This document shows positions 12,602 through 51,780 of a stretch of 53,248 nt of DNA, piece by piece (positions within the stretch are counted from its first letter, which is position 1; every line of letters begins with the position of its first letter). Position numbers and translations under genes: made by a program. The stretch comes from Aplysia californica. Taxonomy: Eukaryota. The stretch is from the NCBI RefSeq assembly GCF_000002075.1, contig NW_004797369.1, positions 929,623-982,870 of the forward strand, in the 5' to 3' direction. A model generated the notes under the pieces. It ran no database searches and was not told the origin of the DNA. It saw only the letters and a program-made list of their open reading frames with translations.

Positions 12602-14407
12602 TTATTTCGTCTTTCTGTGGACAAGAAATTGCCATATCCTATAGAAATCATCAAAAACTAGAATCCCAAACACTGGCAAAAACGTGCAGGCAAACACGAC
12701 AAAACCAACTGAAGTGCAGGACGGTCTGGGGTCTATAGCGGATGTTTTACTCCTAAGTTTTCTGGAGAGGTTCGCTTTAGGTACGTGGAGAGACCTCTGG
12801 ATGATGGCAATCTTCGAGGACAAGACTGTTTCATTTAGTAAGTCCTGAAAATTCTTAGAGTCAAGGAGACATGTGCACGGGCACAAATTCCCTGGACGTT
12901 TTGAAACTGGGACTTGAGACGTTTCCTCTAAAGTCTGTGTATGATTGTCGCGAGACGTCGTCACCTCTGTACTCGTCAAATGACGCTCACACGACTCAGT
13001 GTTAGCGTCAGAAGATTTGTAAGTTGGAAGTGAAACAGCCCAGCCGAGGACAGCGTTATCAGCACTAAACATGGAACCACTGAAAGAACAACGCTCACCA
13101 TTCACTTTGATTTTATTCCCAGTTGTAATTGTAGTGATGAAAAATTCTCTAGAGCAATAGCGATGAGTCTCTAGCACTTCAAGCGGTTCAGATGATGTGT
13201 ACACTTTTCCAATAGGCACACTTACATTAATTTCTATTATACATTCGCATAGCGCTGTAATCAAAATGTGGACATTTGTGTCATCAAACATAGCAATCTC
13301 TGAATGAGTGCTCCACTCAGGTATAGGATATAGCACTGCACAGGACGAATCAAAATGGCTTTTACCTGTTCCATTTAAGAGTGGCATAAAATACTGTAGA
13401 ACTAAGATAGGACCAGTGGCGTGCAGGTACGTAACTGTGTCTCCTAACTGAAATGAGAAAAATGTAGAAGTATTTTTAGAAGTGTTTTCTTTCATCTCGA
13501 TATGCTCCAGACCGGAAAGAGTTGTAGACGGAGAGACGTACGCAATTTTGATGAGAGAATCTTTATCGTCATTACGAAAAGGTGCTAAAACATAGTCTTG
13601 CCCTAAAGCAGACACAGGAGGCAATTGCTCTATCATCATATCTTTATAATTGCACGGGACAGTCCTTATAAAAACACAGTCAAAATTCGCTCCAGCGATG
13701 ACAGCTACAGGGCTCTCTGCCCTGACCCAAGTACCTGTTAGGTCAGCTCCTTCACCCAAGATTTGCAGAACATCTAAAGGCTCCAGAGACTCTCGTAAAT
13801 ACTGCCCAGAATAGAAAATTGTTGTCTTTTTGTAAGTGATAGTACTCTCAGCGGGTTCGAAGGCAAACTCGATAGTGACATCATTGAATCCTTCTGAGTT
13901 CACGACGAGAAGGAAAGAAGACAAATGTACACTTTCGGTGACCACTAAATATTCACAGGATAGCAAACTGACGGGCATGACATTGAACGCTCCAGCACTT
14001 TTGCTGGTAGATTCATGTATTTCAAGTTTCAAACTTCTTGCCTGGACGACAACCTGAGAGGTGGAGTTCACTATGATTCCCTGTTTTTTCCCTATGCCAG
14101 TTTTCTTGAAATGAACCAAATGCTCCAGATTAAGCAGCCATTGCTCGTTTGAGACGGACGTAAAGTTGTGTGAATATTTCTGAGTCTGTATTTCACCTGA
14201 TGAAGTCTTACGTGCGGGTGCTGTTACAGTGACCTCGACGTTCTGAACAAAGTCCTGTGAGAGAGGCGAGATGGCCAATGAAGCAACGGCGTGTTTGACA
14301 TGTTTTGGGAACGCTAGAACGTACTGGATTTGCGTCTCACCAAAGATGCCTGAAATAATCGCTGCAAAGCACAAACACCAATGTAATCCTCCAGATGTAG
14401 AGCCCAT
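12602..14407 (-). CDS. IgGFc-binding (FCGBP N-terminal-like) domain type I membrane protein, paralog 1 (601 aa)
   Basis: Uninterrupted ORF. The ATG at 14407 is aligned with the paralog starts (an in-frame upstream ATG at 14449 is also possible). Signal peptide MGSTSGGLHWCLCFAAIISGIFG. FCGBP-N-like motifs DLTGTWVRAESPVAVIAG and C...MIEQLPPVSALGQDY. TM VGFVVFACTFLPVFGILVF. Confidence 0.9.
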   Translation of the reverse strand: MGSTSGGLHWCLCFAAIISGIFGETQIQYVLAFPKHVKHAVASLAISPLSQDFVQNVEVTVTAPARKTSSGEIQTQKYSHNFTSVSNEQWLLNLEHLVHFKKTGIGKKQGIIVNSTSQVVVQARSLKLEIHESTSKSAGAFNVMPVSLLSCEYLVVTESVHLSSFLLVVNSEGFNDVTIEFAFEPAESTITYKKTTIFYSGQYLRESLEPLDVLQILGEGADLTGTWVRAESPVAVIAGANFDCVFIRTVPCNYKDMMIEQLPPVSALGQDYVLAPFRNDDKDSLIKIAYVSPSTTLSGLEHIEMKENTSKNTSTFFSFQLGDTVTYLHATGPILVLQYFMPLLNGTGKSHFDSSCAVLYPIPEWSTHSEIAMFDDTNVHILITALCECIIEINVSVPIGKVYTSSEPLEVLETHRYCSREFFITTITTGNKIKVNGERCSFSGSMFSADNAVLGWAVSLPTYKSSDANTESCERHLTSTEVTTSRDNHTQTLEETSQVPVSKRPGNLCPCTCLLDSKNFQDLLNETVLSSKIAIIQRSLHVPKANLSRKLRSKTSAIDPRPSCTSVGFVVFACTFLPVFGILVFDDFYRIWQFLVHRKTK

Positions 14408-22757: not shown

Positions 22758-24953
22758 CTATCTACGGAGAAGCCAACGTAAAGCCTTGTAACAATCATTT
22801 AGTATTAGAATTCCAAATATTGGTAAAATCGTGCAGCCAAACACGACAAAACCAATTGAAGTACTGGATGGCCTGTGGTCTATGGCGCACATTTTACTCC
22901 TCACTCTTCTTGAGAGGTTCGCCCTAGGAACGTGGAGAAAGCTCTGGATGGCTGCCCTCTTTGAGGACAAGAATGGCATTGTCTCATTTAGCAGATCTCG
23001 ATAATTCTGAGATCCAGAAAGACATGAACATGGGCACAAGATGAATCTGATCTTTGAAATCGGGCTCTGAGATATTTCCTCGACAGTATTTTTGTTATCA
23101 TCTTTGGCTACTGTCAATATTCTACTCCAAAACTTTATGTTATCGCGAGTAGACTCTGGTGTCACCGGAGATGTTTGCTCAACAGTTTGTCTGTTATTAT
23201 CGTGGGATGCTTCCGGTATTCTACTCAAAACCGTAATGTCTTTTTCAGTAGCCTCGGGTGTCCCCTGTGTTGTTTCCCAAATAGTTAGATCGTTATTATC
23301 GTTAGATGATTCCCCAACAGTTAGACCGCCATTATCGTTAGATGTTTCCTCAACAGTTAGACTGTTATTATCGTTAGACGTTTCCTCAAAAGCTGGACCG
23401 TTGTTATCGTTAGATGTTTCCGATATTCTACTCGAAACCGTGACGTCTTCTTCAGTAGACTTGAGTGTCGCCTGTGTTGTTCCCGCAGCTGTTGTGAGGC
23501 TCTTCATGTTGGATTTCTGTACCTCTGTACTCGTCAACTGAAGCTCACAAGATGTTGTGTTGTCATCAATGGGTTGAAAGGTTACCAATGGAACGGCCCA
23601 ACCCGTTTTGTCTCGGTGAGTAGCCACAACGACACCACTGAACAAACATTCGTCACTGTTTACAAAAATTTTATTTAATTTTGTGCTCGAGGTAATGATC
23701 ATTTGTCTTGAACAATAACGATGTTCACGTTTTGCTCTTGTCTTGAACTCTTCAACAGATACTCCAATCTTAATTTCTTTTATGCACTTGCACAAAGCAA
23801 CGATTAACGTTATTAGATTCATGTCATCAAAAGGTAATATTTCAGCATGAGTTCTCCATTTGGAGAGAGGATATATAACTGTCACTGATGAGTCAAAGAA
23901 AGTGGTGTGCTTCAAGGCCACAACATACTGTAGAACTAACACAGGTGCAGAAGCGTAGAGATAAACTATCGAGTCTCCGTTTAGTTGAAAAGTGAAAAAT
24001 GTGGGAAAATCTTGAGACGTGTTCACATTTATCAGAACATTGTCCAGACCAAAAACAGTCGTCGATGGACTGGTGTATCCGATTTTAACAAACGATTTAA
24101 TACTGGAGTTGACAAAAGGTGCAAAAACGTAGCTTTGCCCTAAAGAACACACAGGGGGCAATTGCTCGACTGCCATGTCGAGTGTACTACACAAATCCCG
24201 CTGTATCCACACGCAGCTGAAATCTGTTCCTGTGATGACAGCTACTTTTCTCTCTGCCCTGACCCATGTACCTGTAAGGTCAGTCTGTTTTCCCAAAATT
24301 TGCAAAACATCTAATGGACCTAAAGATTCAGGCAAAACCTGACCGGAATGCAAAATAATATCAGTGCTTCCGTTATTGTAAATGATTTCTCTTTGTGCTG
24401 GTTGAAGGCTCAATTCAATTATGACGTCATTGGATCCATCGGGGTTAACGACAAGTAGAAAACAAAACGAAGACGAACATTCTGTGACCACTACGTATTC
24501 ATGAGATAATAGAGTAGTGGGCATTACATTAAAGGCCCCAGCACTTTTTTTAAAGTCCTCAGCCATTCTGACTTTCAAACTTTTAGCCCGAACGACCAGC
24601 TGAGATGTCGAAGTAACCATGATACCTTGACTCTTCCCTATGCCTGACATTTCAAAATGAACCAAATACTCCAGGTTCAGAAGCCATTGCTCGTTTGAGG
24701 AGGACGAAAAGTTGTGTGAATATTCCTGAGTCCGTATTTCACCTGATGCCGTCTTACGTGCGGGTGCTGTTACAGTGACCTCGATGTTCTGAACAAAGTC
24801 CTGTGAGAGGGGTGAGATGGCCAATGAAGGAATGGCGTGTTTGACATGTTTTGGAAAGGCTAAAACGTACTGAAATTGCTGGTCCGCAAAGATGCCGGTA
24901 ATAATCATAGCAAGGCACAAACACAGAAGTAATTCTTGAAATGTTGAAGCCAT
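22758..24953 (-). CDS. IgGFc-binding domain type I membrane protein, paralog 2 (731 aa, long repetitive stalk)
   Basis: Uninterrupted ORF. The first ATG is at 24953 (the ORF-track start is a GTG). Signal peptide MASTFQELLLCLCLAMIITGIFA, motifs DLTGTWVRAERKVAVITG and VEQLPPV, mucin-like repeat stalk, TM IGFVVFGCTILPIFGILIL. Confidence 0.9.
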   Translation of the reverse strand: MASTFQELLLCLCLAMIITGIFADQQFQYVLAFPKHVKHAIPSLAISPLSQDFVQNIEVTVTAPARKTASGEIRTQEYSHNFSSSSNEQWLLNLEYLVHFEMSGIGKSQGIMVTSTSQLVVRAKSLKVRMAEDFKKSAGAFNVMPTTLLSHEYVVVTECSSSFCFLLVVNPDGSNDVIIELSLQPAQREIIYNNGSTDIILHSGQVLPESLGPLDVLQILGKQTDLTGTWVRAERKVAVITGTDFSCVWIQRDLCSTLDMAVEQLPPVCSLGQSYVFAPFVNSSIKSFVKIGYTSPSTTVFGLDNVLINVNTSQDFPTFFTFQLNGDSIVYLYASAPVLVLQYVVALKHTTFFDSSVTVIYPLSKWRTHAEILPFDDMNLITLIVALCKCIKEIKIGVSVEEFKTRAKREHRYCSRQMIITSSTKLNKIFVNSDECLFSGVVVATHRDKTGWAVPLVTFQPIDDNTTSCELQLTSTEVQKSNMKSLTTAAGTTQATLKSTEEDVTVSSRISETSNDNNGPAFEETSNDNNSLTVEETSNDNGGLTVGESSNDNNDLTIWETTQGTPEATEKDITVLSRIPEASHDNNRQTVEQTSPVTPESTRDNIKFWSRILTVAKDDNKNTVEEISQSPISKIRFILCPCSCLSGSQNYRDLLNETMPFLSSKRAAIQSFLHVPRANLSRRVRSKMCAIDHRPSSTSIGFVVFGCTILPIFGILILNDCYKALRWLLRR
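23281..23423 (-). repeat. Coding 36-bp (12-aa) tandem repeat x4 in the stalk of paralog 2
   Basis: SETSNDNNGPAF / EETSNDNNSLTV / EETSNDNGGLTV / GESSNDNNDLTI. Confidence 0.9.
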
Positions 24954-30438: not shown

Positions 30439-32382
30439 TTACATATCGAATATCATAGTTTTTTGTTTCTTTCGTAACCCACGGTAAAGCCAATGCAAAA
30501 CATTCCAGCAGTCACTAAATATCAGACAGCCAAATATTGGCAAAAACGTGCAGGCAAACACGAGGAAACCAACTGAAGTACTCGATGGTCTGTGGTCTAT
30601 GGCGCACATTTTGCTCCTTATTGTTCTAGAGAGGTTTGCTCTAGGAACGTATAGATAGCTGCTGATGGCTGCAATCCCTGAGGATAAGAATGTCTCATTT
30701 AGCAGGTCTCGATAGCCCTGAGGCAGAAGAACACATTTACATGGACACAAGTTAGCTCTCATTTGTGGGACTGTTCTGGTATGTATTTCTTTAGTGAAAG
30801 TCTTGGTTGTGTTGACTTTAGATGCCGTTGTCTCTGTTTCTGAAGTCAGAGTTTCCCAAAATGCTTTGGCATCAGTGAAGTTGAGAGTCGCAGGAGACGT
30901 GTCTTCCAGTTGGTGTATGTTATTAAAGACAGGCGTCACAACCTCCGTGCTTGTCATCTCAGGCTCACGCGACATCGTGTCATCATTAGCTGATTTAAAA
31001 CTAGCAAGTGGAGCTGCCCAACCACTAAATGATCTTCCAAGTGCAATGATCAAACCGCTGAATGAGCACCGGTCGCTGTTTACTTGGATAGTTTCCTCCG
31101 TTGTGTGTGAAGTAATAAACATTTCTCTCGAGCAAAACCGGCATGTAGTTCCTTCATCTACGTGTTCCGGCGGTGTGTACAGTTCTTGAAACTCAACTCC
31201 AACGTCTATTTCTGTTATGCAATAACACAACGCTGTAATTACCATTTGAAACTTGATGTCGTCAAAGGGTAATATTTCTGCACGAGTGCCCCATTTGGAA
31301 AAAGGATAAAGAACAACGGCCGACGAATCAAAAGTCAAGCCAATATCATATTCAGGTAGGACAAGGACATACTGTAGCACCAATACGGGTGCCGAAGCTC
31401 TTAGATAGACCACATTGTCCCCAGACACTTTTACAGAGAAAAATGAGGAAGTATTTTGAGACGTGTTCACATTCATATCAATATGTTCCAAACCTAAAAA
31501 AGTTGTTGAAGGAGAGGTGTATGCGATTTTGATGAAGGTATCCTTGCTACCGTAGTAAAAAGGGGCAAGAACATATTCGTGTCCTAACTCAGACACAGGC
31601 GGAAGCTGCTCGATCATCATATCTTTAGTCCTGCACGAAAGCCTCCTTAAATGTACACAGTCAAAATTGGTCCCAGCGATGACAGCTACGGGATACCATG
31701 CTGTGACCCATGTACCTGTGAGGTCAGTCCTTTCGCCCAAGATTTGCAAAACATCTAATGGCTCCAAATATTCTCGTAAAGATTGCCCAGAATAGTAAAT
31801 ATCATCTATCTCTTTGTATGCGATACTACTATTTTCTGGATGTAATTTCAAGTTAATAGTGACGAAATTATCGCTTTCTGCATTCACAACAAGAAGGATA
31901 CAGTCCGCTGTTACACATTCCGTGACCACTAAATATTCATGGGATAACAAGCTAATGGGCAAAACATTGAAACTTCCAGCGCTAGTAAAACCCGCAGTTT
32001 CCCTACTTCTAGCCTGGACAGCAAGCCGAGAAGTGGAAGATACTAAGATTGCCTGCTTCTTCCCTTTGCCAGACTCCGTGAAATGAACCAAATACTCGAG
32101 GTTAAGAAACCATTGCTCGTTTGAGTTGGACGTAAAACTGTGTGTATACTCTTGAGTCAATGTTTCACCTGATGAGGTCGTATTTACGGGTGCTTTTACA
32201 GTGACCTCGATGCTCTCCTCAACTAAGTCCTGTGAGACCACCGAGATGGCCAAAGAAGGAACAGCGTTTGTGGTGTGTTTTGGAAAAGCTAGAATATACT
32301 GGAAATGTTCTTTTGCAAAGACATCTGCTATAATCACAGCAAAGCACAAATATCGCTGTAGTCCTTGAAATGTTGAACCCAT
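30439..32382 (-). CDS. IgGFc-binding domain type I membrane protein, paralog 3 (647 aa)
   Basis: Uninterrupted ORF from ATG. Signal peptide MGSTFQGLQRYLCFAVIIADVFA, motifs DLTGTWVTAWYPVAVIAG and MIEQLPPVSELGHEY, Thr-rich stalk, TM VGFLVFACTFLPIFGCLIF. Confidence 0.92.
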   Translation of the reverse strand: MGSTFQGLQRYLCFAVIIADVFAKEHFQYILAFPKHTTNAVPSLAISVVSQDLVEESIEVTVKAPVNTTSSGETLTQEYTHSFTSNSNEQWFLNLEYLVHFTESGKGKKQAILVSSTSRLAVQARSRETAGFTSAGSFNVLPISLLSHEYLVVTECVTADCILLVVNAESDNFVTINLKLHPENSSIAYKEIDDIYYSGQSLREYLEPLDVLQILGERTDLTGTWVTAWYPVAVIAGTNFDCVHLRRLSCRTKDMMIEQLPPVSELGHEYVLAPFYYGSKDTFIKIAYTSPSTTFLGLEHIDMNVNTSQNTSSFFSVKVSGDNVVYLRASAPVLVLQYVLVLPEYDIGLTFDSSAVVLYPFSKWGTRAEILPFDDIKFQMVITALCYCITEIDVGVEFQELYTPPEHVDEGTTCRFCSREMFITSHTTEETIQVNSDRCSFSGLIIALGRSFSGWAAPLASFKSANDDTMSREPEMTSTEVVTPVFNNIHQLEDTSPATLNFTDAKAFWETLTSETETTASKVNTTKTFTKEIHTRTVPQMRANLCPCKCVLLPQGYRDLLNETFLSSGIAAISSYLYVPRANLSRTIRSKMCAIDHRPSSTSVGFLVFACTFLPIFGCLIFSDCWNVLHWLYRGLRKKQKTMIFDM

Positions 32383-36299: not shown

Positions 36300-37232
36300 T
36301 GCACACACACACGTAGGCTTACAATCACAAGCATAATATGACTGAGCAGCAATATAAACAATAATACTCTTAAGCTAGATACACACTCAATATTATTCGG
36401 ATGCATGCTCTAAGGTCGTGAGTATACTTATACAAGATGGTTAAGATGGAAGCATTTTGATAGATGATGGTAAAAATGACCTTCTATATCTTTCTTTGTT
36501 ACAGATCAGAAGCCTAGGTCTTTTATTTCCTACTGATGTTTTTATTTGAGGGAACAAGGGATCTTTATTGTGTAAAAAGATGGAATTAAATTTTTTTGTG
36601 CAAGCTGTTATGTACAATTCATCCAAGTAGGGGAGTGTAGATGTTGAAATTTTACATGCTTTCCATATTAGTCGATTTAATTTCTCTTTATTTTGTTGTC
36701 TTGTGCTCCCAGCCCATGCTGTTATACAAAAATTGATCATACTTTCGATGGTTGCATGGCAGAATATGGACATCAATGTTTTCTCAACTTTAAAATACTT
36801 TAGCTTCCTTAGAAAAAATAGTCTTTTTTTCACTTTATTTATGCAGGAGAGAGGTGTGGACACGCCAGTTGAGTTTGTTGTCTATTGTAACTCCCACATA
36901 CTTATAGTCTGACACTTACTCGACGTTTTCACATTTAATTTCGAGTGGCTGCAGGGGCAGTTTCTTTATTTTAAAATCAAAAACAAGTTCTTTTGGTTTT
37001 TTTCACATTTAAAAGCAGCTTACGATTTTCACACCATTCAGCAAAGTTAAGTACAAAATTCCGGTTCTGGTAAACGGTTTTTGTTATGGTCAGTCTGAAT
37101 TAGCCCAATTATGGTTGAATCATCTGCAAATTTTATCAACTTAACGTTACTGTTGTTTATTTGACAATCGTTCGTGTAAAGTGTGAATAAAACTGGTGAC
37201 AAAACACATCCTTGAGGGGCGCCTGTATTTGT
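36151..37232 (-). mobile_element. 5'-truncated LINE, Rex/Babar (CR1-L2 group)-like RT and C-terminal region
   Basis: TGAPQGCVLSPVLFTLYTNDC, KFADD, and KKRLFFLRKLK...IESMINFCITAWAG (DUF1891-like). The 3' end has AATAAA and (TATCT)n-like repeats. Frameshifted, with an embedded (CA)n at 36225-36310. Confidence 0.85.
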
Positions 37233-37527
37233 ATGTTGATGAAGAATGATGGGGGTGTAAGAACACCTAGGTTGAAAAATAATAATAACATTGCCCTTTA
37301 TGAGTATGCGTCCAGATACATGGATACTTGCATTAGGCAAAAACAGCGTTAAATCGTAAAGACTGCACATTAATTTACAGTGTGGCTGAGATCACCGTAT
37401 CGTCGTGTGAAAAGATAAGTCTTAGAGAAACTTTGAGAAGCAAAAAAGAAACACTCATGTAAAAATCAGCAAGTTGTTAATCGACCGTGCCACGCCTTTT
37501 CTTGATGGACCTTGAATGGGATAATCC

Positions 37528-37880: not shown

Positions 37881-39593
37881 CTAATGGTAAAGCCAGCATA
37901 AAGCTTTGTACAAATCGCATAGCACCAGGCTCCCAAATATCGGGAAAAAAGTACAAACAAACACGAGGAAACCAACTGCAGTACTTGACGGCCTGTCATC
38001 CGTGGCGGACGTTTTGCTCCTTACTGTTTTGGAGAGGTCCTCTTTTAGAACATAGAGATAACTCTGGATGGCTGCTATCTCTGAGGACAAGGCTGTCCTA
38101 TTGAGCATGTCTCGATGAGTATAAAAAGCTCGTGGACATGAACAGGGGCACAAGTTAACTCTGACTAGTGGGGTTGGGCTCGGGCTTACTTCATCAACTC
38201 TGTAGTGGAAATTCACAAGTGGCACGGCCCAACCAGAAACTGATCTTTTGACATTAATGATAGAACCAGTAAACGGACAACTTTCACCGTTTACTTCGAT
38301 TTTATTCTCTAAATCGTTTGAAGAAATGAGTATTTCTTTAGAGCAATAACGAGAGGTTCCCCCCTCATCTTCGGGTTCCGAAAGTGTGTTCAGTTCTGTA
38401 ATATCTACTCCAATTTGTATTTCATGTATACAGAGGCAGGATGCAATGATTATCATTTCATAATTGTTGTCGTCAAAAGTTAAAATTTCTGCACGATTGA
38501 CCCATTTGGATATAGGGTATAGAACAGTAGCTGACAAATCAAAAAGAATTGTTTCGTTGAACGGTGGCAAAACAAACTGTACAATCAACACAGGGTCAGA
38601 GGCATGAAGATGAGTAATAGTGTGGGCTTCTACTTGAAAATAGAGAAAAGTGGATGTATTTCGAGATGTGCTTTCTTTCATCTGAATATGTTCCAGGCCA
38701 GAAAAAGTTGTGGAGGGAGTTACGTAAACAATTTTGACGAAAGAAACCTTATTTTCGTTAGAAAAAGGCGTTAGAACATAATCTTGTCCCAAATCAGAAA
38801 CAGGGGGTAACTGCTCAATAAGCATATCTCTAAATTTGCACTTCTCATTCCCCATAAACACACAGTCAAAACTGGCCCCAGCAATGACAGCTACAGGTCT
38901 TTGTGCCCTGACCCAAGTACCTGTGAGGTCAGCTCCTTCACCCAAGATTTGCAGAACATCTAATGACTCCAAAGATTCTCGTAAAGATTGCCCCGAATAG
39001 AAAGTAATTGTATTTTTGTAATTGATACTACTGTCTGCGGGTTCGAAGGCAAACTCGATAGTGACATCATTGAATCCTTCTGAGTTCACGACGAGAAGGA
39101 AAGAAGACAAATGTACACTTTCGGTGACCACTAAATATTCACAGGATAGCAAACTGACGGGCATGACATTGAACGCTCCTGCAGATTTACCAGAACTTTC
39201 AGTTATCAGTATTTTAAAAGTTTTTGCATGAACCACAAGACCAGATGTGGACGTTATTAGAATTCCCTGGTTCTTCCCGATACCAGGCTTCTGGAAATGA
39301 ACCAAGTACTCCAGATTGAGCAGCCATTGTTCGTTTGAGGCGGATGTAAAGTTGTGTGAATATTCCTGAGTCTTTATTTCACCAGATAAAGACGTACGTG
39401 CGGGTGCTGTTACAGTGACCTCGACGTTCTGAACAATATCCTGTGAGAGAGGTGAAATGGCCAATGAAGGAACGGCGTAGTTGAGATGTTTTGGAAACGC
39501 TAACACGTACTTGACCAGCTCTTCAGCAAATATATCTGTAATGATCACAGAAAGGCACAAACACCGATGCCACTCTTGAATTTTTATGTTCAT
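37881..39593 (-). CDS. IgGFc-binding domain type I membrane protein, paralog 4 (570 aa, minimal stalk)
   Basis: Uninterrupted ORF. The first ATG is at 39593 (the ORF-track start is a GTG). Signal peptide MNIKIQEWHRCLCLSVIITDIFA, motifs DLTGTWVRAQRPVAVIAG and LIEQLPPV, TM VGFLVFVCTFFPIFGSLVL. Confidence 0.9.
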   Translation of the reverse strand: MNIKIQEWHRCLCLSVIITDIFAEELVKYVLAFPKHLNYAVPSLAISPLSQDIVQNVEVTVTAPARTSLSGEIKTQEYSHNFTSASNEQWLLNLEYLVHFQKPGIGKNQGILITSTSGLVVHAKTFKILITESSGKSAGAFNVMPVSLLSCEYLVVTESVHLSSFLLVVNSEGFNDVTIEFAFEPADSSINYKNTITFYSGQSLRESLESLDVLQILGEGADLTGTWVRAQRPVAVIAGASFDCVFMGNEKCKFRDMLIEQLPPVSDLGQDYVLTPFSNENKVSFVKIVYVTPSTTFSGLEHIQMKESTSRNTSTFLYFQVEAHTITHLHASDPVLIVQFVLPPFNETILFDLSATVLYPISKWVNRAEILTFDDNNYEMIIIASCLCIHEIQIGVDITELNTLSEPEDEGGTSRYCSKEILISSNDLENKIEVNGESCPFTGSIINVKRSVSGWAVPLVNFHYRVDEVSPSPTPLVRVNLCPCSCPRAFYTHRDMLNRTALSSEIAAIQSYLYVLKEDLSKTVRSKTSATDDRPSSTAVGFLVFVCTFFPIFGSLVLCDLYKALCWLYH

Positions 39594-41360: not shown

Positions 41361-43649
41361 AGAAAGAGACAGAGAGTAGAGTGGAAGGAGGGGGGGATGG
41401 AAGTTGAACAGAAAGAGAAGTGTAACTGTGGAGTGATTGAAGGATGGCATTGTAGACTCTTTGGGCTGTGATTATTTTGTAGAGTGTACATTTGCAGAAT
41501 AATTGTTTCTTGTAAGAAAGGATGCTAATAAACTAATAGAAATGAATACAGTAATACTCCCGGTCCTCACATCAATGTATGAAACTTTCTACAAACCGAT
41601 AGCTAGAACGTATGTTTCTATCCTTCTCCCCACCTCTAAAAAAAAGCGCACAAAAAACCAAAAAAACCAGCACTTTAAAAAAAAAAATCAGAATGGATAT
41701 AATATACTATCAAATATCTGAAATTGAAATTAAAAGTTACTCAACGGATATAATTTTAATTCATTTTAGCTTAACATTTTGAAACCTTTAATTTTTATTC
41801 ACCTATCAAATGAGACAAATACTCCTAGTGCACAATGATAGCACGATTAGTTTTTTCTTAGAATCTCGGATCTCTCGAAACTGTTTAGTGAAGATCGATG
41901 AATAATAGTGGATTGAAAACACTTCGAACATGATCAGTGAGGAAATAAGTCCACCCTTATGAGCGTAGAGCTGTTTGGGTTTTTAAAAAATATTTTCAAA
42001 ACTTATTTTTATGTTCGTGTTTTTATGCCCCGATCAACAAATTTTAGATAACTTAGAAAGCTGGCTACGACCCTCCCTGCCAGGGCCTACCAAAGCTGAT
42101 AGGGTCCAACGGCCAAGCAGAAAGATGGCCATCATAGTCATCATCAATATGCCAGAACGGAAGCAAACATTAGCGATCATGGTTCCCTTTTCATTTCTCG
42201 GCTCCGAAAAATACTATACTGTCCGAGAAAAACCTGTACTGTCCTGGTGATTCCCTGTCACCGATCTGTTCAGATTTTCAAAATCAGTTTCTCTAGGTCT
42301 AATCCCGCCTCGTTTGCCTTCTACTTTGCCAGTGAAAGCAAGATGTTCAAAGCTCTTATCGATTCAAGTGTCCCAGAAACTGCATTTGTCGCTTCTTTGT
42401 TCTTATTAATAAGCGGTTTTTGTTTCTAAGCCTGTCTGACCTTTTCCGACTTTTCCTCATCCCGGAACGTTTCTTTCTGCAGCCTCTTCTCCTTCCCCTT
42501 TTCCTTGGTACCTTTTTTGGCGATAATGCCGGGAGCGTCGTCAAGGGAGCACGATCTCCGTAGCTCCCGCGCCGTTTCCCTTTTAAAGAAATATAATTTA
42601 AACTCATGATGCGTTTTTATAACTTGGGAATTTATACTGTAACCCTGGCAGAGCCCCATACCAGGGAAGGGGACACATTCATGCCTGGCTCCGCCCCCGA
42701 GGTCGCCAAATACCCACATAAGCGACTGACTAACCCGCAGCCATACATCCCGTGGGCACGTTGGTACATCTTGGTCTTAGGGATTTTTTGTCGAGGTTGT
42801 CTCCTCTAGATCCGTTGTGTTCCGTTCCTGAACCGCAAGGTTTAGGATAACAGTGTCACCTCTGGAAGGATGTGGCTCTTCGCTCACGCACAACGGTCTT
42901 GAGATAATGAGAGGTTGGCTGGGTACATGGACTGGCAGCTCGAGATGCATGCCACTTTCACTGAAAAAAAAATCCAGCTATACCCAGAGGTGCCTAAGGG
43001 GGAGAGCTCGGTGTCTCCACAGTGTTTCCGCTTCCCAAGAACCTTAACATCATTACCCCCTGGGCTCCCGCCGTGGTTGATCGTGAGGTGAAATTTGACA
43101 AAGAAGTGTTGAAAACCCTGGAGAAAAAGTTGCAGGATGAAGAAGACAAGGAGACAGCAGAACACCACGCAATCATTAGGATGCGGGAAAGGCGGATAGA
43201 GAGGGGAGAAGGAAAAAATGAACGATTATCTGGAAAGGAAAGACGTCGCCATAATCCGACAGCCACCGGAACATTCAGTATGGATACCTTGCGGGCTTTG
43301 GTGTTGGGGGGAACTGAGCACTTATGGACCTGTCCGGTGTGCAATGACGTTGTTGCCCAGGACAGGTAATACAGGTAATAATAATAAGCGGACCTCGTGA
43401 GCTGTTTCCAGGGCTCACTCTTTTGATTTCTATTCGTTTCATAAAATTCGCCAAAGGCTAAAACGATTATTTCTGTTCCTTCTATTTTATTTCAACTTCA
43501 CCTGGTAATTGTCCAGCATTTATAGCTGTACAAACAGCTTGACTACACACAGCCTTTTAGAAACCTTATTATAGTTGTCATTGAAATATTTCTATTTTTA
43601 GACTAACCTCTACACAAAACAGTACAGGCTGTGAAAATAAAATAAGAGT

Positions 43650-44560
43650 AATTTTATTATGTCACCACACCTCTTTAGCATGTACACTGAAACAATCCTT
43701 AGAAACATAGAAGAATGTCCAGGTTTTAAAGTGAATGGCGAAAATATTAATAACATCAGATATGCCGATGACACTGTTTTAATAGCAGACTCAGAAAAGG
43801 ACATTCAATCGCTTCTAGATACTGTTGTAACAGAACATGAATGTAAAGGATTATTATTAAATGTAAAGGATACAGAATGCATGGTAATATCCAATAAAGC
43901 AGCGAATTCTATTTGTAATCTCATTAGCAAAGGCGAAAATATCAAACAAGTCCAACAGTTTAAATATCTAGGATACATAATAACATCTGAGGCAAAAGTT
44001 CCACAGAAATAAAATGGACAATTTTAATGGTTAAGGCTAGTTTTCATAAAATGAGCCCAATCCTGAGAAATAGAAACATCTCAATGACTACCAAAATGAA
44101 AGTTCTGAAGTGCTATGTATGATCAACCCTTCTATATGGCTGTGAATGCTGGACAATCTTTAAATACAGGGAAAATAGAATAGAAGCAACAGAAATCTGG
44201 TTTCTTGGGAGACTGCTGAGAATATAATGTGAGGAGAAGAAATCAAATGAGATAGTGCTTGATGAAGCCCTATTGGGACGCTCACTGTTCATATATAACA
44301 ATCAGGAAACGACTAAATGCAGTTTTCGGGACACCTGAATAGACATAAAGGTCTTGAACATCTAGTTTTCACTGGCAAAATTGAAGGCCAACGAGGCAGG
44401 GGTAGCCCCAGATCAACCTACCTAGGGGATCTAAACAAATGAGTAACGGGAAAGATAAGGGAAAGATAATTTTTTAAAGAGCTTCCGCGCAAAGGAATGA
44501 ATGGAGAACAATGATCGCCGATGTCTGTCGCAGATCTGGCACTGAATGATGATGATGATG
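43650..44560 (+). mobile_element. 5'-truncated RTE-clade (BovB-like) LINE
   Basis: SPHLFSMY...INNIRYADDTVLIAD...FKYLG, downstream LLYGCECWT, (TGA)n tail at about 44545-44560. Contains stops and frameshifts. Confidence 0.9.
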
Positions 44561-44989
44561 AATAGTTTTCACAACTTGTTTTGAGAACAGTTGACACTTT
44601 CTGAATACTGACAACGGTTTAGTCAGTCCTTTTCCTGGTACATGTACCATTTTTCGACTCGGCTTGCTTCCTCTAATTATGACACAGCATTCTTGGAGAA
44701 ATATCACTTATAAGGCAGACTGCAGTACTGTTGATCCTCAAAAGAGATGAAATAATACAGCATAATATCTATGTAGAAGCAAAACTATCTTATCTCTTTT
44801 GGCCCTTTTTACTCTTGCAATTCGTTTACTTGCCCTTTTCAAGTTGCATGTACTGTTTTAACAAATCCATCTAATTGATTTTTGCCTTTTTACTTTATGA
44901 ACCAAGGTTTTATAACATGTAACTTGCGAAAAAGATTATTGTAAATACAGTAAGAAAATGTGGTATTTAAGGAGAATACTTAAAATGTC

Positions 44990-45454
44990 CAAAAAGCCCC
45001 CCAAAGCCCAACCCCAGGTCTACGCCCCGGGAGGTGGAAACTGGACAAAGTAGGGGATTGCTGGGTTCAACGAAGTACGGTGTGGCTTTACGCCACTGAG
45101 GCGTCACGCTAGCTGTGAAGGAGAACCGGGTCACCCCGAAAAGTTGCAGGCTAACGGGGCTCTGGTGAAACTGTGACAGGCCTAGCAAGTCGGCAGCGGA
45201 TTATCTATTGTTTAAAAACACAAATAGAAGAAAGAAACGGACTGACATAGACGGAAAACGACCGGGAAACGTTAAAGAATTACGAGAAAGAATTTGTACT
45301 CTTAACATATGTGGCCTCAAAGACAAGGAACCGGAACTCATTACTTTCATGAAAAGGTGGAGAATACCAATACTTGAACTGTCGGATTGCCGTTTCAAAG
45401 GAATTGGGACTAAGAAAATACATGAAAATTACATACTAATATGGAGTGGAGTAG

Positions 45455-45518
<64 letters not shown>

Positions 45519-48148
45519 AAGAGAGAGAGAGAGCTATTCATGGGGTGAGATTAATAATACAACCTGACATGGCAGAAAGAGTTATAGAGAAAGAATTAAT
45601 ATCAGAAAGGATCTTGAAAATCAGAGTACAGAAAGCGCAAAAAGGGAACCTATCGCCCAAGTTTACGCCCCTTGTAACGACACAAACTCAAGAGAAGATA
45701 AAGAAGAATGTTTTCAGAAGTTGGCGGACACCACAGACAGAGTACCTGATGATGAGGAACTACTTATAAAGGGAGACTTCAATGGACACGTAGGCCCAAG
45801 AAGAACACCATGAGAAAACTACCTTGGACCACACGGTGACACCAGTTCAGATTGTAACTATAATGGGGAACAAATATTGGCTCTCTGTGCAGAATATGAA
45901 CTATACATCACAAATACTTTTCACCAGCACAGGCCAAGACAAACTAGAAATTTCCTCACAGATCGACTTCATATTGAGATGAATCGTCCATAGAGCAAAA
46001 AAACTGATGCAAGATCAATCCCAAATATCAACTTTGATACAGATCACCGGCCCATGCGAAAACAGAAGAAGAAACATTCAGAGAAAATTAATTTACGAAA
46101 ACTCAAAGAAGAGGGCAATGTGCAGAAAGTTGAGGACGAGATCACAAAGAGACTGGAAAACCAAGACACCAGTTCGATGAACGTTGAAGAAACATGGACT
46201 CTCTTTAAAAACTTACTAACAGAAACATTGATAAACGTATGTGGAAAGAAGAGAATAGAATTGGGAGAGGATACGTTAAAGGAACACCATGGTGTGATGG
46301 CAACGTTAAAGAGGCCATCAAAGAAAAGAAGAAGCATTTTCTGAAATTGATAAAATCCAAGGAGGAAAACGACTACAAGCAATACAGACTAGCAAGAAGG
46401 AACTGCAAAAGAGTTGTTAGAGCATCAAAAAAATGAATCTTGGACAAAATATGGAGAACACCTAGGCGAACTGTGCCATAAATCACCACGTGACTTCTAC
46501 AGAAGTGTAAAATCAATGAGACTCAGAGAAGAACCGTACGACCCAACAGCTGTAATTAATGACAAAACAGGAAATCCCACTATCGACAGCTCCAAAATTA
46601 AACCTTGATGGAGGGAATATTTCTCAGAATTCTTGAACACCACCCAAAAGCAAACAAACAAAGAATTCCAACCAAGTCATCCAGAGGAAAAAGACCCACC
46701 AAAATACCAGCCCAATAAACAGAAGCGCAGGAATAGATAGGCTCACCACGGAGACCATCCTAGCATGTGGGGAAACTGGAATAACTTGGCTCACAAAAAT
46801 CTTCCAGAAAGCATGGACAGAAAGAAAAGTTCCCGGCGACTGTCAAAAAGCGGTCATAGTACCAATCTGGATAAAGAAAGGCAGTAAGAGAGACTGTGGA
46901 ATGTATAGAGGCATTTCACTGCTAAGCTATGTGGGCAAGATGTTCACCAAGATATTGGAATGGCGAACAAGACACGAATTTGAATCATTTCTGAGAGAGG
47001 TCCAAATGGGATTTAGAAAGGGAAGAGGATGCACCGACGCAATATTTACCCTACGACAAATGTGCGAAAGGGTAATAGAACACAACAGGGAACTAGATAT
47101 AGTATTTATCGACCAGGAGAAAGCGTTAGACAGAGTGAACTAAAACAAGCTGTGGAAAGAACTCGAAAACTACACTGTAAGGGGCAAACTTCTAGATAAC
47201 ATCCGCGACATTTACGACAACAGCATAAGTACAGTAAGAACACCAGAGGGACTCATAGAATGGTTCGAGATAACATACAGAGTAAGACAAGGTTGTGTTC
47301 TATATCCACTACTATTTAACATATATATGGATATAATTACAAAAGAGGGAAACACAGAATCAGACGCCCTAAATGAATTACTCTTCGTTGATGACCAAAG
47401 CCTGGCACACAAAGATGAACGAAGTCTCCAACACCACACCACCAGATTAAACGAAGAATGTAACAACTAGGACATGAAGATCAACATCAACAAAACAGAG
47501 ACAATGAAAGTAAGCAGAAAGCCAGAACCACTCAGGATACACACCAACAACAACAGTCTCAGACAGGTCCAAGAATTTAAGTACTTCGGAAGTATATTCA
47601 CAGGTGATGGGCGACTGAACAGAGAAATTAAAACACGAGTACAAAAGGCCAATAATGTTAGTTACCAGCTAACATCCCCATGACAACAAAACTCAAAATG
47701 ATCAACACCATATTATTCATCCAAACACTTACCTATCAATGCCAAACATGGACTACGAACAAGACATTAGAGCAAAGAATTACAACATGTGAAATGCGAT
47801 GCCTTAGAAAAGCAGTAAATAAGACCAGGCGAGATAAAATTAGAAACTCTGTAATACGAGAAATGGTGAGCACAAAAGATGTCATGCATCACATCCAACA
47901 CCAAAGAATCAAATGGTTCGGACATCTCCGACGATTACCAACACACCATCCAGCACAACGTGCCTACATAAAAAAAAGGCAACAAGGCTAGAGGGCGACC
48001 GAGAAAGACCTGGCTAGATGGAGTCAGGGAAACATTAACCACCTACGTCATCCCCTCGACCCAAGCTCTCATCCTGGCGACAGAGAAACGTCTCTTTCTT
48101 CCCGCGACACCCAAAAGGGTATAAGCGGCGGATAAAAGTAAAATTAAG
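44990..48148 (+). mobile_element. Near full-length decayed RTE/RTE-X-like LINE with 12-bp TSD
   Basis: Endonuclease motifs ICTLN, QVYAP, GDFNGHVG and TDHRP. RT motifs YRGISLLS, QMGFRKGRGCTDAIF, VRQGCVL.PLLFNIYMD, LFVDD, FKYFGS and KWFGHL. TSD ACTTAAAATGTC at 44978-44989 and 48149-48160. Many stops, plus a (GA)n expansion at about 45459-45532. Confidence 0.92.
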
Positions 48149-49950: not shown

Positions 49951-51780
49951 TTAATTGCTTTCCACAGTGGTTCTCTGAAGTATCCAACGGTAAAGGAGAC
50001 GCAAAACCCTAAAACAATCGCTTAACACCAAACTCCCAAATATTGGCAAAAACATACAGCCAAACACGACAAAACCAACTGAAGTGCTGGACTGCCTGTT
50101 GTCTATGGCAGACATTTTGCTCCTCACTCTTTTAGAGAGGTTCGCTGCAGGAACGTAGAGATAACTCTGGATGGCTGCAGTCTCTGTGGACAAGACTGTC
50201 TCATTTAGCAGATCTAGAAAACTCTGAAATCCAAGAAGACATTTACATGGGCATATCTTTTTTCGAACTTTTGAGACCGAGATTTGAGAAGTTTCTTCAA
50301 AAATGTTCGTGTAGTTGACGTGAGATGTCGTCATCTCTGTAGTGGTCATCTGAGGCTCACAGAACGTAGTATTATCGTAGGCCGATCTGAAAGGAACGAG
50401 TGGGATGGCCCAGCCACTAAGTGCTTTCTGAAATGCAATGATCAAACCACTGAATATACATCCTTCACTTTTTACTTGGATGGAATTTACCTGTTTGTTT
50501 GACGTAATAAACATTTCTCGTGAGCAAAACTGGCACTCGCCCCCTGTGTCTGCAGATGTTGTAGGTGTGTTCAGTTCTTGAATGGCAACTCCGACTTTTA
50601 CTTCATGTATACACTTGCACAGTGCGGTAATTATCATTTGGAATTTTATGTCATTAAAAGTTAAAATTTCGGCATAAGTGCCCCATTTTGAGATAGGAAA
50701 TAGAACTGTTGCTGACGTATCAAACATGTGGTTTTCGTCGTGCAGAAGTGGAATAACATACTGTACAACCAATACTGGGGAAGAAGCGCGCAGATGGATG
50801 ACCGTTTCCCCGTCGATTTTCAAAGAGAAAAATGTAGACGTAGTTTGAGATGTGTTTGCGCTTATTTCTATATTTTCCAAACCAAAAAAAGTCGTTAAAG
50901 GAGTAATAAACCCAATTTTGACGAAAGAATCTTTACTACCGTTGGCAAAAGGTGCTAAAACATATTCTTGTCCTAAAACAGACACAGGGGGCAACTGCTC
51001 GACAGTCATGTCTCTGTCAACGCACAAGGGCCCTCTCAGCCATACACAATCGAAATTAGCCCCTGCAATGACCACTACGTTCCTTTGTGCCTGGATCCGT
51101 GTACCTGTGAGATCAGTTCTACTACCCAAAATTTGCAGAACATCTAATGGGCCTACAGGTTCTCGTACCATTTGTCCTGAATACAATGTATTATTTTTGT
51201 CTTTATACATAACAGTATTGTTTGCTGGGTGCAGTTTTAGTTCAATAGCGACTTCATTTTCTCCCTCAGGATTCACAACGAGAAGAAAGCAAAATGAAAC
51301 GATACATTCTGTTACCACTAAATATTCATTAGATAGCAATCGAACGGACAAGACATTAAACGCTCCAATACTTTTAATTGTAAGATTTTTCCTTCTGATT
51401 TTTGAACTTCTTGCTTGGACAACCAGCTGAGCTGTGGAATTTACGACAATTCCTTGTTTCCTCCCTACACCTGAAAGGTCGAATTGAGCCAAATTCTCCA
51501 GGTACAGCAGCCATTGGTCGTTTGAATTGGACGTAAAGTTGTGTGTATATTTCTGAGTCTGTATTTCACCTGATGAAGTCTTCCGAGCGGGTGCTGTTAC
51601 AGTGACTTCGATGTTCTGCTCAAAGTCTTGTGAGAAAGGCGAGATGGCCAATGAAGGAATGGCGGTGTGGAGATGTTTTGGAAACGCTAGAACGTACTCG
51701 AACTGTTTGTCAGCTAAGATGTCTACAATAATCACAGCAAAGCACAAACATAGAAGTAATCCTTGAAGTGTTGAAGCCAT
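49951..51780 (-). CDS. IgGFc-binding domain type I membrane protein, paralog 5 (609 aa)
   Basis: Uninterrupted ORF. The first ATG is at 51780 (the ORF-track start is a TTG). Signal peptide MASTLQGLLLCLCFAVIIVDILA, motifs DLTGTRIQAQRNVVVIAG and VEQLPPVSVLGQEY, TM VGFVVFGCMFLPIFGSLVL. Confidence 0.9.
   Translation of the reverse strand: MASTLQGLLLCLCFAVIIVDILADKQFEYVLAFPKHLHTAIPSLAISPFSQDFEQNIEVTVTAPARKTSSGEIQTQKYTHNFTSNSNDQWLLYLENLAQFDLSGVGRKQGIVVNSTAQLVVQARSSKIRRKNLTIKSIGAFNVLSVRLLSNEYLVVTECIVSFCFLLVVNPEGENEVAIELKLHPANNTVMYKDKNNTLYSGQMVREPVGPLDVLQILGSRTDLTGTRIQAQRNVVVIAGANFDCVWLRGPLCVDRDMTVEQLPPVSVLGQEYVLAPFANGSKDSFVKIGFITPLTTFFGLENIEISANTSQTTSTFFSLKIDGETVIHLRASSPVLVVQYVIPLLHDENHMFDTSATVLFPISKWGTYAEILTFNDIKFQMIITALCKCIHEVKVGVAIQELNTPTTSADTGGECQFCSREMFITSNKQVNSIQVKSEGCIFSGLIIAFQKALSGWAIPLVPFRSAYDNTTFCEPQMTTTEMTTSHVNYTNIFEETSQISVSKVRKKICPCKCLLGFQSFLDLLNETVLSTETAAIQSYLYVPAANLSKRVRSKMSAIDNRQSSTSVGFVVFGCMFLPIFGSLVLSDCFRVLRLLYRWILQRTTVESN

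What the first reader, a model, noticed from the sequence alone, without database searches (positions are those of the whole stretch)
13851..13993. 143-bp perfectly identical tract shared by non-adjacent paralogs 1 and 4: gene conversion footprint
Seen: 13851-13993 equals 39037-39179 base for base, including synonymous sites (GAFNVMPVSLLSCEYLVVTESVHLSSFLLVVNSEGFNDVTIEFAFEPA). Paralogs 2, 3 and 5 differ substantially here, and genes 1 and 4 are clearly diverged elsewhere. The tract starts right after variable loop 1, and elevated identity continues to just before the C-x7-C loop. Inference: recent ectopic gene conversion over 25 kb exchanging framework segments.
Basis: partly seen in the sequence, partly recalled or inferred. 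Interest (0 to 1): 0.7.

Follow-up and report, generated by a model that had tools for sequence, protein, structure and literature searches.

The report
Gene-conversion patch between sea-hare paralogs
Two genes for predicted cell-surface proteins in a sea-hare gene cluster share 143 identical DNA letters but differ at about 30% of positions elsewhere, and the patch is also present in other samples of the species; ordinary gene conversion likely copied it from one gene to the other, a common kind of event.

Summary
Real and ordinary in kind. Window 13851-13993 equals 39037-39179 exactly. Both lie in single-ORF genes (g1, g4) of a tandem array of 14 IgGFc-binding-domain (PF17517) membrane-protein loci; cluster proteins are named Aplysia californica. 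g1 and g4 differ at 0 of 23 fourfold-degenerate sites in the tract, against 17 of 30 and 12 of 18 downstream. It is not an assembly collapse: three other samples of one study give a 143-bp contig at about twice flank depth, joined to g4 flanks. Best reading: interlocus gene conversion, probably repeated, since an older 87%-identical stratum adjoins it and the tract's substitutions lean to GC (post hoc). Direction is unknown. No polymorphism was seen in 6 of 6 covering samples. Extras: the tract lacks a cysteine pair kept in all 12 other paralogs; the adjacent loop carries two three-residue haplotypes; a second, polarised tract (g8 into g9, not checked in reads) lies on the loop's other side. 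Positive selection on loops was not shown. The scan's earlier notes held nothing on this cluster.

The parts
13851..13993 (-). 143-bp tract, g1 copy (aa 139-186): four predicted beta strands, the last of domain 1 and the first three of domain 2
   Evidence: strands, domain boundary inferred from aligned ranges
39037..39179 (-). 143-bp tract, g4 copy
   Evidence: g4-type flanks join the same contig node in other samples
13690..13850 (-). Older, partly eroded stratum in g1 (21 of 161 bases differ from g4; dS about 0.35); contains a 38-bp identical run at 13740-13777
38876..39036 (-). Older stratum, g4 counterpart
13997..14032 (-). Variable loop 1 of g1 (aa 126-137), upstream edge of the tract; two haplotypes differing at 14003, 14010, 14017 (S135R, S133F, H131N)
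39183..39218 (-). Variable loop 1 of g4
13916..13933 (-). Site of the C-x4-C pair of all 12 other paralogs, read S-x4-S in g1 (and in g4 at 39102-39119)
13652..13678 (-). C-x7-C variable loop of g1 (aa 244-252), where elevated g1/g4 identity ends
12602..14407 (-). g1: single ORF, 601 aa from my chosen Met (database protein 615 aa), PF17517 ectodomain, Ser/Thr stalk, one predicted membrane helix at 12653-12709
22758..24953 (-). g2: paralog, 731 aa, long Ser/Thr stalk
30439..32382 (-). g3: paralog, 647 aa
37881..39593 (-). g4: paralog, 570 aa, almost no stalk
49951..51780 (-). g5: paralog, 609 aa

Best explanation
Paralogs g1 and g4, 25 kb apart in a same-strand tandem array, share an identical 143-bp coding segment, likely because germline interlocus gene conversion (break repair off the wrong paralog) copied it from one gene to the other. 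Shown: the identity, its synonymous component, two copies in other samples, and an adjoining older 87%-identical stratum. Inferred: conversion once covered all of predicted domain 2 (about 300 bp, aa 139-243) and recurred in a shrinking window, stopping upstream at the highly divergent loop 1 where strand pairing would fail (I put repeated events at about 0.65 against a single last event). Not determined: donor and acceptor, and whether selection favoured sharing the segment.
For: Fourfold-degenerate differences g1/g4: 0 of 23 in the tract, 4 of 23 in aa 187-243, 17 of 30 in aa 253-360, 12 of 18 in aa 361-463, 11 of 23 at the C terminus; deep paralog pairs differ at 215 of 452 in the tract region. 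Permutation score 34.5 against null maximum 11.0. Tract against neighbour: 0 of 143 and 21 of 161 differences, Fisher P 9e-7. Segment trees disagree: g1+g4 group in the tract (100), the next stratum (91) and aa 240-460 (73), but fall on opposite sides of a 97%-supported split at the C terminus. Runs X7, X9, X13 each give one contig of exactly 13851-13993 at depth 98, 127 and 98 against flanks of 42-61; in X7 a second left flank carries g4's letter at 19 of 19 listed sites checked; in X9 and X13 the loose right end equals g4's flank over 30 of 30 letters. X10 and X11 bridge the tract within g1 with no listed difference inside it. Third-position changes on the tract lineage run AT to GC 9:2 and 8:0 under two majority rules, against 39:41 in g1 and g4 elsewhere (Fisher P 0.006) and 26:17 in other genes over the same columns (P 0.04); GC bias as a mark of recurrent conversion is recalled knowledge. 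A polarised second case: g9 is 93% like g10 overall but matches g8 at 229 of 231 bases over aa 28-104, with 18 of 21 informative sites siding with g8 against 40 of 254 elsewhere. The length fits published tracts: surviving tracts aggregate at 50-200 nt in Caenorhabditis (PMC3966223 section 6).
Against: No orthologs from a second species were found, so no donor state was seen; the two runs labelled as other organisms did not cover the tract. All read evidence is assembled contigs, which drop small bubbles, so single differences inside the tract could be hidden; the three double-depth samples are one study. No long read spans both loci. The GC-bias test is post hoc, rests on 8-11 sites and weakens under the first rule (9:2). 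A minimal efficient segment of about 200 bp is quoted for yeast (PMC3924818 passage), longer than the present tract, though the paper says shorter ones are not ruled out. The g8/g9 tract lies near assembly gaps and was not checked in reads. Non-reciprocal transfer is assumed, not shown.
Confidence: 0.88

Rival explanations
1. Assembly artefact: the assembler filled one locus with the other locus's sequence.
For: The scaffold has N gaps and recent duplicates further along the cluster.
Against: Independent contigs of three other samples, each with alleles that differ from the window, break at the same two ends of the tract at about twice flank depth and connect to g4 flanks. The eroded neighbouring stratum cannot come from a collapse.
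Confidence: 0.02
2. Shared ancestry plus strong purifying selection on protein or RNA: g1 and g4 are sister duplicates that kept this segment unchanged.
For: g1 and g4 are each other's closest paralog over aa 139-360; the segment is mostly predicted core strands.
Against: Synonymous sites are identical too (0 of 23) while the same columns differ at 48% among other pairs. The segment folds no better than shuffles as RNA (z 0.02). Site-aware null: longest run at most 71 in 20,000.
Confidence: 0.02
3. Another homologous-recombination route with the same footprint: double unequal crossover between misaligned arrays, or conversion templated by a cDNA copy of one gene's mRNA.
For: The cluster shows unequal crossing-over products: 0.8-2.8 kb duplicates at 92-99% and gene fragments. 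The coding regions are uninterrupted ORFs, so an RNA template would leave no intron mark.
Against: Two crossovers 143 bp apart are less likely than one conversion tract (inference); gene number and order between g1 and g4 show no matching change; nested strata are simpler under repeated conversion. Nothing points to an RNA template.
Confidence: 0.08

Closest known systems
Interlocus (ectopic) gene conversion between clustered paralogs, as reviewed for Caenorhabditis (PMC3966223) and generally (PMC3924818)
   Same: Short identical tract within diverged, same-orientation, linked paralogs; 143 bp lies in the 50-200 nt range given; long tracts may be sums of several events, as both reviews note.
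   Different: Nothing in kind. The partners are about 70% identical outside the tract and have two genes between them; direction is unresolved.
FCGBP_N / IgGFc_binding domain proteins (Pfam PF17517; PMC4948705)
   Same: All five window proteins pass the Pfam cut-off (80-101 bits against 25.6); domain at the N terminus; lineage-specific expansion, as with 26 proteins in amphioxus.
   Different: No von Willebrand D repeats (one weak VWD hit under the cut-off in g4); a mollusc-type tail of Ser/Thr stalk, CPCxC motif and one predicted membrane helix, also seen in Batillaria and Haliotis proteins. Function of the domain is stated to be unclear (PMC11796319 passage). No solved relative found by sequence or fold.
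Diversifying invertebrate gene clusters such as sea-urchin Sp185/333 (PMC5103432, listing and abstract start only)
   Same: Clustered similar genes, short tandem repeats and segmental duplications nearby, mosaic sequences.
   Different: No homology; no immune role, expression pattern or positive selection was shown for this cluster.

Membership tests
Interlocus gene conversion tract | Run of identity between paralogs longer than background allows | tested here: met
Interlocus gene conversion tract | Identity includes synonymous sites | tested here: met
   0 of 23 fourfold sites differ against 40 of 71 in aa 253-463 and the C terminus together
Interlocus gene conversion tract | Both copies exist in real DNA | tested here: met
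   double-depth 143-bp contig with g4 flanks in X7, X9, X13
Interlocus gene conversion tract | Local tree differs from the tree of the rest of the gene | tested here: met
   g1+g4 grouped in the middle, separated at 97% at the C terminus
Interlocus gene conversion tract | Non-reciprocal transfer with identifiable donor | tested here: inconclusive
   no outgroup ortholog; polarity seen only for g8 into g9
Interlocus gene conversion tract | Variants shared between loci in the population (ongoing conversion) | not testable with these tools
   only contigs were available; they drop small bubbles
IgGFc_binding (PF17517) proteins | Pfam score above the gathering cut-off | tested here: met
   5 of 5 window proteins; Atlas first hit 0.93 is a mollusc PF17517 cluster
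Vertebrate-type FCGBP | Multiple VWD-C8-TIL units after the N domain | tested here: not met
   no such units in 5 of 5 proteins
Diversified immune or recognition receptor family | Positive selection on variable loops (pN above pS) | tested here: inconclusive
   two independent young pairs pooled: loops pN 0.18, pS 0.27; rest pN 0.056, pS 0.17; loops are freer but not above neutral, few sites
Diversified immune or recognition receptor family | Expression in barrier or blood cells and ligand binding | not testable with these tools
   no tissue-labelled RNA run, no binding assay

The most novel reading that the evidence does not exclude
The array is an undescribed family of sea-hare recognition proteins that is diversified by domain-sized gene conversion around a selected loop: whole beta-sandwich domains are copied between paralogs (domain 2 between g1 and g4, domain 1 from g8 into g9), conversion stops on both sides of loop 1, loop 1 carries balanced amino-acid haplotypes, and g1/g4 form a functional subtype that has traded a conserved disulfide hairpin for an open one.
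Probability: 0.2. Interest if true: 0.6.

Novelty: new member of a known kind. Interest (0 to 1): 0.3.

Why it matters
As an event it is a textbook footprint. Its value is local: it shows that this uncharacterised 14-locus array of predicted surface proteins is a mosaic, so single gene trees, dates and short-read mapping across it mislead. If the loop between the two conversion tracts proves to be under balancing selection, the array would be a compact test case for how conversion and selection build receptor diversity in a model mollusc, and a handle on a domain whose function is unclear.

Tried and rejected
RNA structure in the tract: z 0.02, 104 of 200 shuffles fold as well. Loop-1 haplotype B as a copy from another paralog: none of the 15 other loci compared has all three letters (12, 3). 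Positive selection on loops: not significant. Clustering of the three loop changes: P 0.034 for 3 of 12 variant sites within 15 bp, post hoc, a hint only. Five shorter identical runs (45-57 bp) reached global P under 0.01, but they lie in conserved blocks and the permutation ignores rate variation, so I do not count them as tracts. Outgroup: X17 and X18 (labelled other organisms) gave only short pieces 99% like g1 or like other paralogs and did not cover the tract; the protein search found close relatives only on this scaffold. Expression: no RNA holder listed. Solved relatives: none by sequence (best E 0.68), Foldseek (TM 0.15 or less) or VIA-align (best Z 6.0, rmsd 4.2 over 106 residues); single domains were not folded separately. 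Non-coding flank alignment of g1 and g4 used gap costs too loose to mean anything; blastn listed no g1/g4 flank match of 400 bp at 85%. Literature: 8 searches listed no paper whose title or abstract start names this cluster; the Aplysia immunome paper has no occurrence of five terms tried. Supplementary figure S5 of PMC4948705, not read, may list these proteins. Earlier scan notes: none nearby; one unrelated zinc-finger cluster.

Full report
Observation. Window 13851-13993 and 39037-39179 are identical over 143 bases, cannot be extended, and are the longest exact same-strand repeat in the window. Both lie inside long minus-strand ORFs. The window holds five such ORFs, g1 to g5; 5 of 5 pass the Pfam cut-off for PF17517 IgGFc_binding. 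A DNA search of the own genome found 16 matches: 14 on this scaffold over about 140 kb and 2 on other scaffolds; the protein search added gene fragments. On the scaffold 12 loci are open frames, g9 is cut by an N gap and g11 is broken. Four cluster proteins are named Aplysia californica by their sources. Similar architectures occur in Batillaria and Haliotis.

Is it more than chance? g1 and g4 are 72.9% identical overall; the other 9 of 10 window pairs are 66.5-70.3%, with longest runs of 21-36 bp. On 13 genes (g9, g11 and the frameshifted copy on another scaffold left out) a GENECONV-like permutation gave the tract a score of 34.5 against a null maximum of 11.0 in 2,000 permutations; third positions alone also gave P 0.0005. 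A null that keeps per-column conservation gave a longest run of at most 71 in 20,000 simulations; even at 85% pair identity the 99th percentile was 86, with a maximum of 159. At fourfold-degenerate sites g1 and g4 differ at 0 of 23 in the tract, while deep paralog pairs differ at 215 of 452 over the same columns. Protein constraint cannot give that, and the RNA folds like its shuffles (z 0.02).

Is it in real DNA? I laid 8 of the 24 listed runs on g1; all are assembled contigs. Six cover the tract and none lists a difference inside it. X7, X9 and X13 (three samples, one study) each give a contig of exactly 13851-13993 at depth 98, 127 and 98, against 42-61 for flanking contigs. In X7 a second left-flank contig carries g4's letter at the listed sites (19 of 19 checked). 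In X9 and X13 the loose right end equals window 39184-39213, g4's own flank. These samples differ from the window at other g1 sites, so they are not copies of it. X10 and X11 bridge the tract inside g1; X14 covers it in two low-depth pieces. X17 and X18 do not cover it. Assembly collapse is thus excluded for practical purposes. Contigs drop small bubbles, so single hidden differences remain possible.

Layers. Fourfold differences between g1 and g4 run 4 of 27 (aa 28-84, a block that is low in all pairs), 5 of 14 (aa 85-125), 0 of 23 (tract), 4 of 23 (aa 187-243), 17 of 30, 12 of 18 and 11 of 23 further on. The tract and its 3' neighbour differ from each other (0 of 143 against 21 of 161, P 9e-7). 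Segment trees put g1 with g4 in the tract, the neighbour and aa 240-460 (support 100, 91, 73) but on opposite sides of a 97% split at the C terminus. Third-position changes on the tract lineage lean AT to GC, 9:2 and 8:0 under two rules, against 39:41 elsewhere in the two genes and 26:17 in other genes; this is post hoc and small, but fits repeated conversion (GC bias of conversion is recalled, not from a call). Zero differences bound the age at about 2% overall or 9% synonymous divergence, against pS 0.50 outside the tract.

What was copied. A confident model of the g1 ectodomain (pLDDT 91, pTM 0.93, 105 sequences) is nearly all beta strand; aligned ranges suggest four sandwich domains (inferred). 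The tract spans four strands across the domain 1/2 boundary, and tract plus older stratum equal roughly domain 2. The segment has 9 residues absent from all 12 other paralogs, among them Ser at both positions of a C-x4-C pair that 12 of 12 other paralogs keep. Five named gastropod homologs whose rows were printed keep the pair; across the wider alignment 38 of 103 covering sequences have two or more Cys there and 59 have none, so the family can do without it. A disulfide is inferred from spacing only.

The upstream edge. Loop 1 (aa 126-137) is among the most variable stretches. In g1 it has two haplotypes: three replacement changes within 15 bp (H131N, S133F, S135R) in X10, X11 and X13, and the window's form in X7, X9 and X14. 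Both carry the same tract. On the other side of this loop, g9 (93% like g10 overall) matches g8 at 229 of 231 bases over aa 28-104, with 18 of 21 informative sites siding with g8 against 40 of 254 elsewhere: a second tract, polarised g8 into g9, unchecked in reads. Against a selective reading: loops did not show pN above pS in two independent young pairs (0.18 against 0.27), and a divergent loop would stop conversion mechanically.

Mechanism and rivals. Most likely germline interlocus gene conversion, repeated in a shrinking window (0.88 for conversion; about 0.65 of that for repetition). Double crossover or an RNA-templated route 0.08; constraint 0.02; collapse 0.02. Donor unknown: no ortholog from another species was found.

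Known context. Surviving tracts aggregate at 50-200 nt in Caenorhabditis, and long ones may be sums of short events (PMC3966223: abstract and section 6 part 1 of 2 read). Most tract estimates run from 50 to several hundred bp, and overlapping events blur them (PMC3924818: passages). [quoted passage not shown] PMC9334734 was term-searched only, with no hit. Eight searches listed no paper on this cluster by title or abstract start; most subscription journals are not in the library.

Verdict. Observation confirmed, interpretation supported. A new instance of a well-known process in an uncharacterised gene array. Interest 0.3; the bolder reading (domain-sized conversion around a selected loop in a recognition family) has probability about 0.2.

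Noticed in passing
L003 and L004 (G000:C99:1015937-1016167 and 1036578-1036808): g9 matches g8 at 229 of 231 bases over most of domain 1 but is g10's sister elsewhere: a second, polarised conversion tract or an assembly chimera.
   Followed up: partly
window 14003, 14010, 14017: Three linked replacement changes in loop 1 of g1 in 3 of 6 covering samples; no other paralog compared has all three letters.
   Followed up: partly
window 13689-13739: A contig of run X11 carries g4's letter at 13739 and four unlisted differences near its end: a chimera through the shared 38-bp run or a small polymorphic conversion patch.
   Followed up: no
window 37881-39593: The database protein for g4 (P0008, 427 aa) starts at a Met inside the tract although the frame is open for 143 more codons with a normal-looking N terminus; likely a truncated gene model.
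   Followed up: no
window 14156-14320 and its homologs (aa 28-84): Fourfold divergence is low among all deep pairs (0.33 against 0.40-0.49 in other ectodomain blocks), with several 46-54 bp identical runs between distant paralogs: possible family-wide homogenisation.
   Followed up: partly
L018-L022 (G000:C99:1024000-1066000): Recent 0.8-2.8 kb segmental duplicates (91-99% identical), gene fragments and a broken paralog: active birth and death at the distal end of the array.
   Followed up: no
L010, L011, L025-L027 (G000:C323:1-3338 and C1094:128897-142698): Two near-identical (97-98%) distant paralogs; the C323 copy is whole with an 11-residue repeat stalk, the C1094 copy is frameshifted and its 3' end lies about 13 kb away on the opposite strand.
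   Followed up: no
L012:329-2128 (G000:C99:919951-921750): A single-ORF 599-aa protein that reads by eye as leucine-rich repeats, an Ig-like domain, a Thr stalk and a membrane helix, 20 kb beyond g1; not scanned against families.
   Followed up: no
window 36441-37391 and 43641-47991: Broken ORFs that read by eye like non-LTR retrotransposon reverse transcriptase pieces on either side of g4; not scanned.
   Followed up: no
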